Counted from the stretch's first letter, positions 9,817-61,861 are shown. The stretch: DNA of 64,000 nucleotides from Chiloscyllium plagiosum (GCF_004010195.1 NC_057719.1:31732883-31796882); one strand, 5' to 3'. A program made the numbers and translations. Notes: generated by a model from the letters alone, not told the origin.

Positions 9817-10034
9817 GAGAAAGTGAGGACTGCAGATGCTGAAGATTAGAGTCGAGGGTGTGTTGCTGGGTAAGCATAGCAGGTCAGGCAGCATCTGAGG
9901 AGGAGGAGAATCAACGTTTTGGGCACAAGCCTTTCATCAGGAATCTGATGAAGGGCTTGTGCTCGAAATGTTGATTTTCCTGCTCCTTGGGATGCTGCCT
10001 GACCTGCTGTGCTTTCCAGCAACACACTCTCGAC
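9817..10034. mobile_element. Fold-back PLE pLTR insert, family A
   Basis: Long inverted arms; 13-bp TSD taagttcattact at 9804-9816 and 10035-10047; hammerhead-like cores on both strands (plus 9945-9974). Confidence 0.9.
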
Positions 10035-11199
10035 TAAGTTCATTACTTGAAGGAGTTAGAAAATAAACATTCATTCAGCTATTCTGATCATTGTTTAAAC
10101 AAGTTAGAGCAAAGGCAAGTCTTTTTAAAATGATCCACTGACCTGGTGATTTTTCCAACAGTGATTCCAGGTCTGGCCTGTCCCAAATGTGTTGAGGCAG
10201 CAGCTCTGCAGCCAAGATGAGGGAATTGTCAATTCTGGCAGGGAGGGCTAGGTGAGTTTGGTTAGGTTGGAATGGTGGAGGAGGAGAGATGGTAGGGCTG
10301 TGCCAGTTCTGGCAAGGTCGGATCAGGCCAGACCGAGGCTAAAATGTCATTTCTGGTAGAGTTGGGATGGAGGAAGGGTGGGGTTCAGGTCCAGCAGGAT
10401 CAGGTGGGTTCAGGGAGGGATTGAGGTTTGAATCTGGCAAGGTTGGTTTGAGTTGGGGCAGGTGGGTGGGTAATCTGTCTGGTTAAGGGGGCATGGTTGG
10501 TCAAGGGACGTCAAGAGTCAGCAGGATGTAGCTCGCAGGTGGTCAATGGTGAGTTGGGGCTCAATTTCATAGTTGCCCAAGAACTAGAGTAATATTTTTC
10601 ACCCTCTAACATTTTCTGGGCAACAATCAAGCTTAAATGAGTCTGAACCATATGAATTCTATGACTTTAAACGTCTTTTTTGGAGGATTCTAGATGCATT
10701 AGAATTGCCCATTGGAGATTTTAATTTCCTTGACAATTCCAAAGAATCAGCCACAATGGAAATATTGCACCCCAATGTGCAACTGCAGTTCAAGCTGTTC
10801 CAATGACTATCAGGCCATTGGAATAGGTACACCATTAGTCAGTGATACGTTCAATTGTCAAAACTGATAAACTAAACTTTTTCTTGGAATTATCTGCAGC
10901 AAGATAGTAAATAGCCTCCAAAATGTTAGAGTTGGGTCATGCCTGCATTTTACAGGAAAATTTGAGGGTTTTTTCCAATAAAACAGGAAAAATAAATATG
11001 TGAAGGAGCATCTAAGAACAAATGGAAGAATTAAGTTGATGGTGATTGGAGTTAATTTAGTTAAAAGTCAAAGTCGTAAAATAATAGAATGAAAATGATT
11101 GATATTTGTATTTTGGTAAGAATCTGTAATATGGAGCTGGGAATCTGGCAAAAAAGCTCAGAGATGAAATTTAAGAAATACTTTTTACAATAAAGTTTT

Positions 11200-11486
11200 A
11201 GACTAGATTCCGTACAGTGTGGAAACAGGCCCTTTGGCCCAACCAGTCCACACTGATCCTCCAAAGAGTAAGCCACCCAGACCCATCTCCCTCTGACTAA
11301 CGCACCTATCACTATGGGTGATTTTAGCATGGCCAATTCACCTGACCTGCACATCTTTAGACTGTGGGAGGAAACCTACACAGACACAGGGAGAATGTGC
11401 AAACTCCACACAGGCAGTCACCTGAGGCTGGAATCAAACCTAGGACCCTGGTGCTGTGAGACAGCAGTGCTGACCACTGAGCCACC
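11200..11486 (-). mobile_element. HE1-type V-SINE
   Basis: Reverse strand has a tRNA-like head (ggtggctcagtggtcagcactgctgtctcacagc), core tgtgtggagtttgcacattctccc and a CR1-like tail. Confidence 0.85.
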
Positions 11487-12670
11487 TGAAAAGTTTATTT
11501 GTAAAGTTTATTTGTAAAGTTTATTAACCTGTGTAATTGATACTGATCTGACAGAAATATCCAAAAATGAAATGGAGAGGTCCATGATTTATTGGTGAGT
11601 GAAGAGATTAGTTTTGTAATAGAGAAAGGTGACAATAGCATATGTAGACCTTGAAAGATTTCCTAAGTGATGATGCTATCTTGATTCACTCAGCAGAAGG
11701 CATGAAAGGTGCTTAGAAAATCTTGTCACTCAGTGCTAATCTGGTAGAATTTCACACAATTGCTGTTCTTCCAACTAACAGAAATAACACTTCTATTGAG
11801 GACTGTTTCATCTAATTACTATTGATCCCAGAGTCTGATATAACCAAAGATGACAATCTGCATGGCTTCTTTTGTTCATGAAGTACAACTTTCTCAAATG
11901 ATTGATATTGCCTTGGGCAAATGTTTGAAATATAAACTAAGTCTGGAGTTGTGTGATAAGATTACTGATACTTAAGATTTACAAAGCCTCTTGTTGTCAA
12001 AGACATAGTTAAAGGATTTTGTTCATTATCATAAAAGCTAAGTGTTTTTTCTTTGACTAAAATTTAATCAAGCGTGTCTGAATCCCAATGAATTGGTGTC
12101 TGTGGTGTTTCTCATGTGATGTTGATCTGCCAATTACTGACTGTATTTGTTTCTAAGTTACCGGTATGCAAATTAATTTAGTGGAAGTATGAGCTTTTAA
12201 TATATTTATTTGTCTTTTAAATATTTAATGACTGTGGTTGTAATTTGTACTATTATCTACATTTAAAAATCATATCCAGAAGGCGGCAAGGATGGTTGAT
12301 ATGGGAAATGAAATAAGTCTCATTGATGAAATATAGTGTAATTGTCTAGCGTTAGGTAAGAGGCATTTTGATGAGGGAGAGTAGAGGAAGCTTTAATCTG
12401 CATCTAGCTAATTATGCATTATCTACAGCTGCTTCCTCCTGTCACAGATTGCATGCTATAGTAAACAGTTACTTCCCGGCAGTAACATTCCTTACCTTGA
12501 TGAATATTCAAAACAGAATATGCTGTAAATTTACACCAGATCAGAAAAGAAAACGTGAACTTAGTGTTTCAGTTTGCGTTCAAAAAGGGAATCTCCATCT
12601 AAAATAATAGAAACTATGTTTTGTTTTTTTACATGACACTTGTGTACTAACAGAGTTTTAATATTATTTC

Positions 12671-13510
12671 TGTTATGACACAGCAATTACAAGCCAAACC
12701 AAATCAACCTCACTATTACTGGATTCACAATACAGAGAAATTAAAACATTCAAAATTGCCTAGCTGTTCTGAACCAGATTTCACAAATAATAGGTCTTGG
12801 ACATCAAGTTTATAATTTAAACAAAAATTAACATTTCATGTTAAAAACATAGCTTAAGCAGAAGACAGGTAAACTTCAAGACAATCTAATTATATCTATG
12901 ATCTAAGGTCAATCTCCTTTGATTATAACCCCCACTCAAACACCAGCAGACAGAGTTAAAGGCGAAATTAAAGAAAGAAAAAGGTACTATAATTTGCCTG
13001 TGCAATAACCATTTAATGATGAATACCAGGCCATCGTGCAATCCTTACATGGTGGAATGAATTACAGGCATGCAAGACTGTGATTCTTACTTGATTTCTA
13101 AACAAACCAGTCAATGCAAACAGCATCTCCAGACCTCTGGAGACTTATCACTGAGATTCTTTTCTCAGAACTTTCAACAAGTCAATGACTGGAGAGTAAC
13201 TAGAGAGACATATCTGAAAACCCAGTCCAGTCTAGAAGCTTCTAAAGCAAAACAAAAACAAAACTGCCTCCTGCCTGAAACCCAGTCAGAGATAATCCCC
13301 TCTTTGGCTTGTTTGTCTTTTTCTACACTCTCTGTGGGTGGCTGGCCAAAATCCCTTGATTGACCATTTCAACATTCAACCAGCGGCCAGTCCCTGAGCA
13401 TAATACCTCGGTGTCAAATTGTCTATGGTGTTCTTGGAGCAGTAATTAACTTGGATCATCTTTCCAGGTCAGTCTTAACAGCAAAAATCTTTTGTCTCTC
13501 CTTTTTAAAG
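12671..13510. mobile_element. Possible solo LTR (old)
   Basis: Starts tgttatgaca like the LTR at 44746 (tgttacgaca); 3' end and TSD not resolved. Confidence 0.3.
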
Positions 13511-60348: not shown

Positions 60349-60500
60349 AAATCATACAACACCAGGTTATAGGCCAACAGGTTTATTTGAAATCACAAGC
60401 TTTTGGACCAGACCCCCTGAATCTGATGAAGAAGCTACGTTCTGAAAGCTTGTGATTTCAAGTAAACCTGTTGGACTATCACCTGGAATTGTATGACTTG
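60349..60500. mobile_element. Fold-back PLE pLTR insert, family B-like
   Basis: Inverted arms tcatacaacaccaggttataggccaacaggtttatttgaaatcacaagc / gcttgtgatttcaagtaaacctgttggactatcacctggaattgtatga; core CTGATGA-agaa gctacg ttct-GAAA-GC-TT at 60423-60451. Confidence 0.8.
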
Positions 60501-61669
60501 TATTTTTCCCAAAGCATAGCCAACCTGCCTTTTTTACTTTTAAAAGTTGTTTATGAAAAGTCCAGGATTTTGGTCCAGTATTTTAGCTGCTAGGGATTTT
60601 TGCTCAATCCTGCAATGTCATGCTGCCATCTTAAAGGTATTGTGCCTTTCAGTGATCTGTGCAATAATACAACACCCCTCCCTCCTTCACCCTTTAAAAC
60701 ATAGGAAATATGTTCTGATGAATCTACACAAAGATGCACATCAATACATTATCTTTACACATTAAAATAGTACTTGGGTGGATCTACAATATGACCAGAC
60801 CTAGTACTTATCACGATTATCACAACATAACTGTGTGGTTTTACTCTGTGATGTACTATTTGTTGTTGTGGATGAATGTGTATCATGATATATAGACGTA
60901 TGGTTGCTATCTGTCATATTTCAGTATCAGAAAAATCCTTTATGTGATCGATGGATGGTCACATACAAATTGGATATGTCATCTGTTTTGTTGTAAGATT
61001 TGACCATCATTTTTGACAAATTTGAATGACTTGGGCAAGACACAATGTCATATTATCTTTATATGAATACCTGGGTTTGCATAAAGATCTTGAACTATAA
61101 TAGTTTGTCCTAAATTTGATTTTAGTTTGTTTAATGTTACAAATTTAACAGGAATTACTGCACTTCTAACAATATTTCCTTCTATGAAGAGCTTTTATGT
61201 GACTTGATGTACTAAAAGTCAGTAGAAGTGGAAAGTGCTTTATTAATATTATTTATTAAGTATGTAAGTTAGCTCGCTGAGCTGGAAGATTTGTTTTCAG
61301 ACTTTTTGTCACCATACTAGGTAACATCATCAGTGAGGGTCTCTGGTGAAGCACTGGTGGTATGTCCCGCCTCTCTGTTTATAGGTCTTGGTTTCTTAAG
61401 GTGAGTGATATAATTTCCGGTTCTTTTTTTCAAGGGAAGGTAGATCCTTCCTAGGACAGGCAAAACAAAGACATGCATGCGAATTCTTATAGGCATAGCA
61501 TTCTAACCAGAACTCCATCAATAAAAACGTATCAACTTAGACCCTATCTACCTTCCCTTGAAAAAAAGAACTTGAAATTACATTACCCACCTTAAGAAAC
61601 TAAGACCTATAAATAGAAAGGGAGGACATACCACTAGCACTTCACCAGAGAGTCTCACTGATAACGTTA

Positions 61670-61821
61670 GGCAAAAGTGAGGACTGCAGATGCTAGAGAT
61701 CAGAGTCTAGATTAGAGTAATGCTAGAAAAGCACAGCAGGTCAGGCAGCATCCGAGGAGCAGGAAAATCGCGTTTCGGGCAAAAGCCCTTCATCTGGATT
61801 TCCAGCACCACTCTAATCTTG
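61670..61821. mobile_element. Fold-back PLE pLTR insert, family A, nested
   Basis: aaagtgaggactgcagatgc...; 15-bp imperfect TSD tcactgataacgtta (61655-61669) / tcactgatgatgtta (61822-61836). Confidence 0.85.
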
Positions 61822-61861
61822 TCACTGATGATGTTACCTAGTACGGTGACGAAATGTCTGA
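61822..61861 (+). ncRNA. Minimal hammerhead ribozyme motif (family C)
   Basis: tca-CTGATGA-t-GTTACC tagtac GGTGAC-GAAA-TG-TC-tga. Confidence 0.65.

What the first reader, a model, noticed from the sequence alone, without database searches (positions are those of the whole stretch)
9945..61861. At least ten minimal hammerhead ribozyme motifs in three PLE families
Seen: cores CUGA(U/A)GA-N-stem II-GAAA-NN-UH at 9945(+), 16544(-), 19165(-), 31648(-), 35008(+), 49049(+), 57369(-), 57433(+), 60423(+) and 61822(+). Stem II differs completely between families (GGGC/GCCC, GGAG/CUCY, GUUACC/GGUGAC) while pairing is kept. Stem III is a 4-nt palindrome in the best copies (ACGU in family A, AGCU in family B; the family C copies read AUGU/ACAU, consistent with CpG decay of ACGU). 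Established: Penelope-like element pLTRs carry minimal type I hammerheads that need dimerisation through the palindromic stem III. Inference: this genome may hold a very large, probably unannotated hammerhead population, about one per 6 kb here, on both strands.
Basis: partly seen in the sequence, partly recalled or inferred. Interest (0 to 1): 0.75.

Follow-up and report, generated by a model that had tools for sequence, protein, structure and literature searches.

The report
Shark Penelope elements scatter hammerhead motifs
The ten small hammerhead-ribozyme motifs are real and belong to the ends of three families of Penelope-like jumping genes that have left well over a hundred thousand such motifs in this likely shark genome, but they are a known feature of these elements and most copies are likely decaying leftovers of insertion rather than working ribozymes.

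Summary
All ten motifs are present (10 descriptor hits; shuffles average 0.14). They lie in pLTR ends of three Penelope-like element (PLE) families, each tied to coding remnants. Exact patterns give at least 158,294 copies with an intact catalytic core, more than any count I found in print. A 369-kb sample gives 1 per 13 kb, not 1 per 6 kb. Minimal hammerheads in PLE ends are published (PMC4209133). Against a working population: in family A the core decays about as fast as the flank (5.1% vs 7.2%, p=0.21); neighbours are mostly head-to-head, not tandem; 7 of 10 are predicted misfolded in context. The number follows from geometry: copying starts 80-125 nt downstream and likely runs off a capped RNA start a few bases before the motif. 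73 of 79 mirror-image insertions pair one tailed with one tail-less arm. Cleavage was not shown; the cut-site footprint is inconclusive. The scan noted these same features before, in this and other genomes.

The parts
9945..9972 (+). Family A hammerhead core C3..H17, stem III AUGU (CpG-decayed), stem I 1 bp
9817..10035 (.). Head-to-head family A insertion: tailed arm on -, tail-less arm on +, 12-bp target-site duplication; opposite arm has a decayed core at 9940(-)
   Evidence: duplication read by eye; the script missed it
16546..16573 (-). Family A hammerhead core, stem III AUGU
16483..16692 (.). Head-to-head family A insertion, one tailed arm, 13-bp target-site duplication
19168..19201 (-). 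Family C hammerhead core, stem III ACAU (broken), one stem II mismatch; in a solo pLTR end 19125-19273 with a TATA-like box about 50 nt upstream of C3
31651..31679 (-). Family B hammerhead core, stem III AGCU, stem I 3 bp
31559..31756 (.). Head-to-head family B insertion, one tailed arm, about 10-bp target-site duplication
32322..35096 (-). Decayed, 5'-truncated family B PLE: RT, thumb and GIY-YIG remnants with stops and frameshifts, 3' pLTR with a dead core at 32438(-), inverted pLTR copy 34575-35096 at its 5' end, about 12-bp duplication with 2 mismatches
   Evidence: (GIY-YIG PF01541 E=0.0013, under the curated cut-off)
35011..35039 (+). Family B hammerhead core in the inverted pLTR; TATAAA 40 nt and an initiator-like CCACA about 8 nt upstream of C3
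   Evidence: promoter labels are recalled consensus motifs
48038..49176 (+). Family A PLE copy: N-terminal ORF fragment, a part that reads N, pyrimidine-rich pLTR, hammerhead and tail
49051..49078 (+). Family A hammerhead core, ACGU palindrome, best-folding copy in context (P stem II 0.98); predicted cut after 49078; inferred RNA start at 49047
57372..57399 (-). Family A hammerhead core, ACGU palindrome
57437..57464 (+). Family A hammerhead core, ACGU palindrome, 4-bp stem I; head-to-head with 57399(-) across a short internal duplication
60423..60451 (+). Divergent family B hammerhead core with a stem II mismatch, in an inverted insertion 60340-60502
61825..61858 (+). Family C hammerhead core, 6-bp stem II, stem III AUGU
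61257..61932 (.). Head-to-head family C insertion (second, decayed core at 61333(-)), 17-bp or longer target-site duplication; a family A end (61669-61798, -) is nested in it
5355..5532 (.). Decayed head-to-head family A insertion (core at 5431(-) mutated)
29332..29465 (-). Decayed family B end (core at 29410(-) mutated)
53578..53696 (-). Family A end truncated inside the hammerhead
6598..6675 (+). Family A end truncated inside the hammerhead
8707..8794 (-). Decayed end of a fourth, A-related family (5-bp stem II, G12 lost)

Best explanation
The motifs are the minimal type I hammerheads carried in the terminal repeats of three Penelope-like retrotransposon families, and their huge number is likely a by-product of how these elements insert, not of selection on each copy. 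Shown: each motif sits in a repeat end with a bimodal 3' boundary (tail present or absent), is linked to PLE coding remnants, and often forms a head-to-head pair with a target-site duplication. Inferred: the element's RNA starts a few bases upstream of the hammerhead (4 nt before C3 in family A, about 8 nt in B); the element's enzyme cuts both DNA strands and primes two cDNAs at two fixed sites about 85 and 120-125 nt downstream of C3, one site per strand; most cDNAs run off the capped, uncleaved RNA start and are joined to each other or to the target, so nearly every insertion, however short, carries a hammerhead. After insertion the copies decay neutrally. The fold was kept by selection only in the master lineages, where it likely cleaves slowly as a dimer through the palindromic stem III, possibly with help from the element's protein.
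For: PLE link: family B remnants with GIY-YIG in the window; family C ORF between inverted hammerhead ends in L091; family A N-terminal fragment has a same-strand hammerhead 2.4-3.0 kb downstream in 15 of 20 fetched loci and its relatives carry RVT_1 and in part GIY-YIG domains. Neutral decay: 21 of 410 non-CpG core letters vs 53 of 738 flank letters differ, p=0.21; G12, in a CpG, differs in 6 of 41. Double priming: 73 of 79 unique head-to-head pairs have one long and one short arm (binomial p=5e-16 against 0.5); duplications of 8 bp or more in 53 of 79 against 0 of 79 in a shifted control; both-strand extension and two start sites are shown in vitro for an anole PLE (PMC11167929). RNA start: 29 of the 47 family A arms that reach position -2 end between -2 and -6, against 2 of 82 at the cut site; an extra G precedes ATTC in 3,032 copies against A in 1,012, where background predicts a ratio of 0.63, as for cap-derived G in full-length L1 (PMC11702581, passage). 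Selection in masters: core identical and stems I, II, III changed with pairing kept across unrelated families and between C subfamilies.
Against: No cleavage, transcription start or priming was observed directly. The decay test covers family A only, 41 arms, and cannot exclude a modest effect or a small selected subset (the point estimate is lower in the core). Family C shows no clear pile-up of 5' ends (most of 49 arms extend more than 60 nt upstream). 6 of 79 pairs break the long/short rule and 26 of 79 show no duplication of 8 bp. The long/short thresholds were set after seeing the distribution, and part of the pair sample was picked by core or tail patterns. An extra G could also be untemplated addition at any RNA end. 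A self-priming model on an antisense template was proposed for such palindromes (PMC3846280).
Confidence: 0.8

Rival explanations
1. The dispersed copies form a working population of ribozymes that cut host transcripts, pairing in trans through the palindromic stem III because so many RNAs carry one.
For: At least 85,246 family A copies keep core, stem II and ACGU exactly. Reads of a poly(A) RNA run carry the element in both orientations, 94% running on into unlike sequence, so copies are read through in other transcripts (2,783 of 12,955,460 reads, run X19, organism not known to be this one). PLE hammerheads cleave as dimers, at low rates (PMC4209133; review PMC6765202).
Against: No excess conservation of the core. 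Stem I is 1-4 bp in 9 of 10 window copies and stem II is predicted unformed in context in 7 of 10. Single minimal motifs did not cleave (PMC4209133); the anole motif needed its protein (PMC11167929); 8 of 9 frog dimers did not cleave (bioRxiv 10.64898/2026.07.22.740005).
Confidence: 0.1
2. The short elements are independent non-autonomous families (retrozyme- or SINE-like) that are transcribed, cut to unit length, circularised and re-inserted.
For: Animal retrozymes derive from PLE ends and have many solo copies; most copies here are 90-250 nt and non-coding; one tandem array begins exactly at the cut site (L222).
Against: Inner junctions differ from copy to copy; solo copies begin just before the hammerhead, not at its cut site; Tandem Repeats Finder shows no hammerhead-bearing array in the window; upstream sequence, where present, is PLE pLTR and ORF.
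Confidence: 0.06
3. 5' ends cluster at the hammerhead because reverse transcriptase stalls or folds back on its structure, or self-primes on an antisense transcript, not because the RNA starts there.
For: Self-priming on an antisense template has been proposed for PLE palindromes (PMC3846280); some arms end inside the motif (14 of 80 between +6 and +25); a fold-back class exists at +28 to +30 (3 of 44 junctions).
Against: The peak lies 5' of the whole structure, after it has been read through; the extra G; fold-back alone does not explain why one arm has the tail and the other not.
Confidence: 0.12
4. The motifs are chance matches to a short descriptor.
For: The descriptor is short and Rfam reports no hammerhead family.
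Against: Shuffles give 0.14 against 10 and 0.6 against 29; reversed-pattern controls are 0 genome-wide; three unrelated families keep the same core and a palindrome in the same place.
Confidence: 0.01

Closest known systems
[quoted passage not shown]
   Same: Core CUGANGA/GAAA/UH, extra nucleotide between A9 and stem II, G10.1-C11.1 pair, palindrome at 15-16, short stem I, several families per genome, mostly solo copies, pairs on opposite strands 100-700 bp apart.
   Different: Copy number: at least 158,294 here against about 4,000 (coelacanth) and 9,000 (Xenopus tropicalis) there, by a different method; stem II is 4-6 bp rather than 7-8; no cartilaginous fish is named in the main text.
Poseidon of Anolis carolinensis, PAc (Frangieh et al. 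2024, PMC11167929; main text read)
   Same: Hammerhead near the pLTR-ORF junction; two adjacent internal RT start sites that define the tail; both target strands extended; uncleaved RNA is the main template.
   Different: That paper saw no strand difference in start site in vitro, whereas insertions here pair one tailed with one tail-less arm in 73 of 79 cases. It does not map the RNA 5' end or count hammerheads.
EN+ PLE insertion anatomy: inverted pLTR, one-sided 30-40 bp tail, TSD, TATA plus initiator in the pLTR (Arkhipova et al. 2013, PMC3846280; Craig et al. 2021, PMC8557442; passages read)
   Same: All of these features are seen in families A, B and C.
   Different: Here most insertions are miniature (90-250 nt) and extremely numerous; those passages explain the palindromes by self-priming or leave them open.
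Non-LTR retrozymes of axolotl and other animals (PMC7229834, passages; bioRxiv 10.64898/2026.07.22.740005, main text)
   Same: Very many type I hammerheads in a vertebrate genome (126,247 in axolotl), dimer-dependent, PLE-related.
   Different: Those are head-to-tail repeats expressed as circular RNA; these are dispersed solo or head-to-head ends with variable inner junctions, in a genome about one eighth the size.

Membership tests
Minimal type I hammerhead (PLE type) | Catalytic core CUGANGA, GAAA, UH in type I order | tested here: met
   10 of 10 sites
Minimal type I hammerhead (PLE type) | Stem II with G10.1-C11.1 and an extra nucleotide after A9; pairing kept across families | tested here: met
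   8 of 10 perfect over 4 bp, 2 with one mismatch; family forms tabulated (no R-scape test)
Minimal type I hammerhead (PLE type) | Palindromic stem III allowing a dimer | tested here: met
   ACGU or AGCU in 109 of 160 unique hits, ACAU/AUGU decay forms in 47; 6 of 10 intact in the window
Minimal type I hammerhead (PLE type) | Stem I of 4-5 bp | tested here: inconclusive
   1-4 bp in 9 of 10 (6 bp in one rearranged copy); 3 bp with compensatory change between C subfamilies; 4 bp in one A subfamily
Minimal type I hammerhead (PLE type) | Site-specific self-cleavage after H17 | not testable with these tools
   Genomic footprint inconclusive; RNA lay not sensitive
EN+ Penelope-like element | Single ORF with RT followed by GIY-YIG endonuclease | tested here: met
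   Family B remnants; family C in L091 (weak Pfam scores); family A through relatives' domains and geometry only, its RT-EN part was not seen
EN+ Penelope-like element | pLTR in direct or inverted orientation with one-sided 30-40 bp tail and TSD | tested here: met
   73 of 79 pairs long/short, TSD in 53 of 79
Neptune clade (families A, B) and Penelope/Poseidon clade (family C) | Cys-rich linker before EN in Neptune, absent in Poseidon; placement in an RT tree | tested here: inconclusive
   A CxxC precedes GIY-YIG in B and not in C; A's linker not seen; no tree built. Definition from PMC8557442
Non-LTR retrozyme | Head-to-tail repeats with a hammerhead in each unit | tested here: not met
   No such array in the window; neighbouring arms within 3.2 kb were head-to-head 95, direct 18, tail-to-tail 17 times before removing duplicates
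Non-LTR retrozyme | Unit-length circular RNA | not testable with these tools
   No suitable RNA run was listed
Rfam hammerhead families | Match to a covariance model | tested here: not met
   0 of 8 matches at E up to 5 are hammerhead families

The most novel reading that the evidence does not exclude
This genome holds the densest hammerhead population on record that I could find (150,000-400,000 motifs), and the copies are a readout of the unsolved PLE replication cycle: the hammerhead occupies the first 35 nt of the capped transcript, each insertion is written by two primings that use different fixed start sites on the two target strands, most products are strong-stop-like run-offs, and a small class that begins exactly at the cut site (including a 47-nt array with variable junctions) records cleavage in the germ line.
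Probability: 0.5. Interest if true: 0.6.

Novelty: new member of a known kind. Interest (0 to 1): 0.36.

Why it matters
The kind is known; what is added is scale and a mechanism-bearing sample. If the count holds, cartilaginous fish genomes are among the largest stores of hammerhead motifs, invisible to Rfam, which matters for ribozyme censuses and for covariation studies with very deep alignments. The strict pairing of tailed and tail-less arms and the pile-up of 5' ends just before the motif give precise, testable predictions for the PLE cycle (RNA start, two priming sites, uncleaved template) in the existing in vitro system. There is no sign that the individual copies do anything for the host.

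Tried and rejected
Rfam scan: no hammerhead family. Pfam on PLE fragments was weak: GIY-YIG E=0.0013 in 1 of 6 family B/A fragments, RVT_1 E=0.015 in 1 of 3 family C fragments, nothing for the family A N-terminus; the assignment rests on motifs, geometry. An intact full-length family A ORF was sought in 20 loci; the middle read N in all 20, so its RT-EN part and clade were not examined. L129 looked like pLTR-ORF-pLTR but its upstream hammerhead belongs to a separate inverted insertion with its own duplication. Sequencing runs: no RNA holder listed. Run X20 laid no reads (no test); run X19 shows no place where many molecules begin or end, but it is a fragmented single-cell library of an organism not known to be this one, so I draw nothing about cleavage from it. 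Genomic test for cleavage: copies starting exactly at the cut site number 217 against 61 two bases further on, but 76 of the first 100 listed (counted by eye) have CAG before the site; of 44 junctions in 40 fetched loci, 24 join an inverted arm running to C3, 3 are fold-back palindromes, 17 other. A small hairpin and stem I microhomology would give the same products without cleavage, and the non-CAG remainder (about 50) does not exceed the control: inconclusive. Dimer energies from ViennaRNA omit the core's non-canonical contacts; the active dimer was never the minimum-energy form and I did not use the numbers. No covariance model or R-scape test was run. Lunse et al. 2017 is not held and is known to me only through a review's citation and recall. 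Literature searches for hammerheads or PLEs in sharks and for twin priming in PLEs returned no paper reporting this, from listings only; the library lacks most subscription papers, and the closed supplements of the 2026 preprint (one chondrichthyan sampled) and the unread supplement of PMC4209133 could hold shark counts.
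Full report
1. Observation. Rfam finds no hammerhead family (0 of 8 matches at E up to 5). Family A has stem II GGGC/GCCC and palindrome ACGU, family B GGAGC/GCUCC and AGCU, family C a 6-bp stem II and ACGU; among 160 unique hits in all fetched DNA the palindrome reads ACGU 67, AGCU 42, ACAU 27, AUGU 20, other 4, so the CpG-decay reading is right. 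In the window 6 of 10 keep a Watson-Crick palindrome and stem I is 1-4 bp in 9 of 10. Nine more decayed cores are present.

2. What they belong to. Family B: 32322-35096 is a decayed, 5'-truncated element with RT, thumb and GIY-YIG remnants, a 3' pLTR and an inverted pLTR at its 5' end that carries the 35011 motif (GIY-YIG E=0.0013, below cut-off). Family C: L091 holds an RT-EN frame between two inverted hammerhead ends with a 12-bp duplication. Family A: the frame at 48038 has 8,292 first-look candidates in the genome, 150 scored; in 15 of 20 fetched loci a same-strand hammerhead lies 2.4-3.0 kb downstream; its N-terminal part matches 693 proteins, the best being shark proteins at 82-86% identity with RVT_1, and several relatives also carry GIY-YIG. 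The RT-EN part of family A was not visible. B has a CxxC before GIY-YIG and C has not, which fits Neptune and Penelope/Poseidon as defined in PMC8557442 (passage); no tree was built. The host is inferred to be a shark.

3. How many. Exact patterns in the 3.56-Gb assembly: family A pristine 85,246, family A allowing CpG decay outside the core 148,784, one B subfamily pattern 5,174, family C 4,336; reversed controls 0; strands balanced. The three non-overlapping patterns sum to 158,294, 1 per 22 kb, a lower bound (the B tail alone occurs 35,759 times). In 39 stretches of 10 kb taken at round coordinates of large contigs the descriptor gives 29 hits in 368,952 bases (25 perfect; shuffles 0.6), which extrapolates to about 280,000 (187,000-401,000). 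The window is about twice as dense as this sample (p=0.03). Published counts I saw: about 4,000 and 9,000 minimal motifs in coelacanth and Xenopus (PMC4209133) and 126,247 canonical motifs in axolotl (PMC7229834, passage), by other methods.

4. Are the copies under selection? I collected family A ends by a motif downstream of the hammerhead, so without choosing on the core: 61 anchors in 432,161 bases (39 stretches plus the window); 3 were dropped as not family A; 41 of 58 span the core. Non-CpG core positions differ at 21 of 410, flank positions at 53 of 738 (p=0.21; the flank figure includes some subfamily differences); G12 and the palindrome, in CpGs, decay at 15-24%. 27 of 58 keep the core, 15 of 58 also the palindrome. 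So conservation is between families, not among inserted copies: selection acted in master elements. B and C were not tested this way. In context, stem II has pairing probability of 0.05 or less at 7 of 10 sites, six of them inside inverted repeats; only 49051 is favourable (0.98). No intact same-strand pair exists in the window; neighbouring arms within 3.2 kb are mostly head-to-head (95 against 18 direct and 17 tail-to-tail, before removing duplicates).

5. Why so many. 3' ends are bimodal in all three families, about 75-90 and 108-126 nt after C3: the known optional tail, which in the anole element equals the stretch between two RT start sites (PMC11167929). Of 79 unique head-to-head pairs, 73 have one long and one short arm (A 32 of 35, B 19 of 21, C 22 of 23; p=5e-16), and 53 have a target duplication of 8 bp or more against 0 in a shifted control. 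Thresholds were set after seeing the distribution and part of the sample was picked by pattern. 5' ends of family A arms not picked on the core (n=89) pile up just before the motif: 29 of the 47 that reach -2 end between -2 and -6, against 2 of 82 at the cut site; family B peaks at -7 to -15 (13 of 31); family C shows no clear peak. Of 45 solo A arms ending in this zone, 41 share no upstream sequence with another. Following a lead from earlier scan notes, I counted the base before ATTC with a pyrimidine in front to exclude inverted arms: G 3,032, A 1,012, against a background ratio of 0.63; an extra G marks cap copying in full-length L1 insertions (PMC11702581, passage). The A at -4 lies in an initiator-like sequence, and B and C have TATA-like boxes 40-50 nt upstream (consensus labels recalled; TATA plus initiator in pLTRs is described in PMC3846280; in Drosophila Penelope the start lies 46 nt before an intron whose end meets helix I). 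I infer that the hammerhead is at the very front of the transcript and that two primings at fixed sites mostly run off the uncleaved RNA start. I had reached the double-priming and RNA-start readings before consulting the notes, which repeat them and are not independent support.

6. Does it cut? Not shown. Minimal PLE motifs cleave weakly and only as dimers (PMC4209133), the anole motif only with its protein and dispensably for insertion in vitro (PMC11167929), and 1 of 9 frog dimers cleaved (bioRxiv 10.64898/2026.07.22.740005). Copies beginning at the cut site exceed a nearby control (217 against 61), but three quarters are one junction type that a small hairpin or stem I microhomology can make without cleavage (24 inverted-arm joins, 3 fold-backs, 17 others among 44 junctions), and the rest do not exceed the control. 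One tandem array starts exactly at the cut site (L222). One RNA run carries the element in both orientations inside other transcripts (2,783 of 12,955,460 reads) and is not suited to mapping ends. I put slow cleavage in master transcripts at about 0.65, from conservation across families and the literature.

7. Comparison and verdict. It works like, and by the tested features is a member of, the PLE minimal hammerheads; catalysis is untested. It is not a retrozyme (no head-to-tail units) and matches no Rfam model. Inverted pLTR, one-sided tail and duplication are described (PMC3846280, PMC8557442; passages). I found no paper giving a shark count or the strict long/short pairing (searches, listings only; library incomplete; supplements of the 2026 preprint closed and that of PMC4209133 unread). 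The scan itself holds 509 notes on this theme in at least 29 genomes. Papers seen: PMC4209133 parts 1-3 of 4; the 2026 preprint parts 1-3 of 5; PMC11167929 parts 1-2 of 4; passages of PMC6155905, PMC3846280, PMC8557442, PMC7229834, PMC6765202, PMC2377424, PMC11702581; Lunse et al. 2017 not seen. Verdict: real, known kind, unusual scale, mostly fossil; interest 0.36; most novel reading probability 0.5, interest 0.6.

Noticed in passing
L222 (G000:C16:42817400-42818200): A tandem array of about nine 47-nt units of the family A end, each starting exactly at the predicted cut site, with variable junction letters, nested in a family B end; may record repeated template jumps from a cleaved RNA end.
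   Followed up: partly
   Followed up: partly
window 61669-61798; L039, L058, L178: PLE ends nested in or fused to the ends of other families: a family A end lies beside the hammerhead of a family C insertion, and in L039 an A arm is joined head-to-head to a B arm at the shared CUGAUGAAGG box.
   Followed up: partly
window 8707-8794; L101, L104: A fourth, A-related hammerhead family with a 5-bp stem II and a different tail; not counted genome-wide.
   Followed up: no
window 33402-33462: A 60-nt piece of the family B pLTR with part of the hammerhead sits inside the coding remnant of the same element.
   Followed up: no
window 5-2153, 6971-7914, 20859-23234, 38291-39523, 41772-42917, 43369-43767, 57521-59274: Many decayed LINE fragments (RVT_1 and endonuclease hits).
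   Followed up: no
window 11196-11486, 21308-21584, 27654-28010, 45507-45809, 49208-49548, 49707-50031, 50543-50867, 63228-63536: About eight copies of a 300-bp dispersed repeat, three of them 96% alike; probably a SINE (self-BLAST; not identified).
   Followed up: no
window 9898-9987 and 31628-31725: The mirror-image insertions score weakly as microRNA precursors in Rfam, under the gathering scores, because they form long hairpins; if transcribed they could feed small-RNA pathways.
   Followed up: no
window 56273-56911: An open frame with weak SGNH/GDSL-like hits (OSK E=0.0004), inside a repeat; possibly a LINE ORF1 esterase (recalled label).
   Followed up: no
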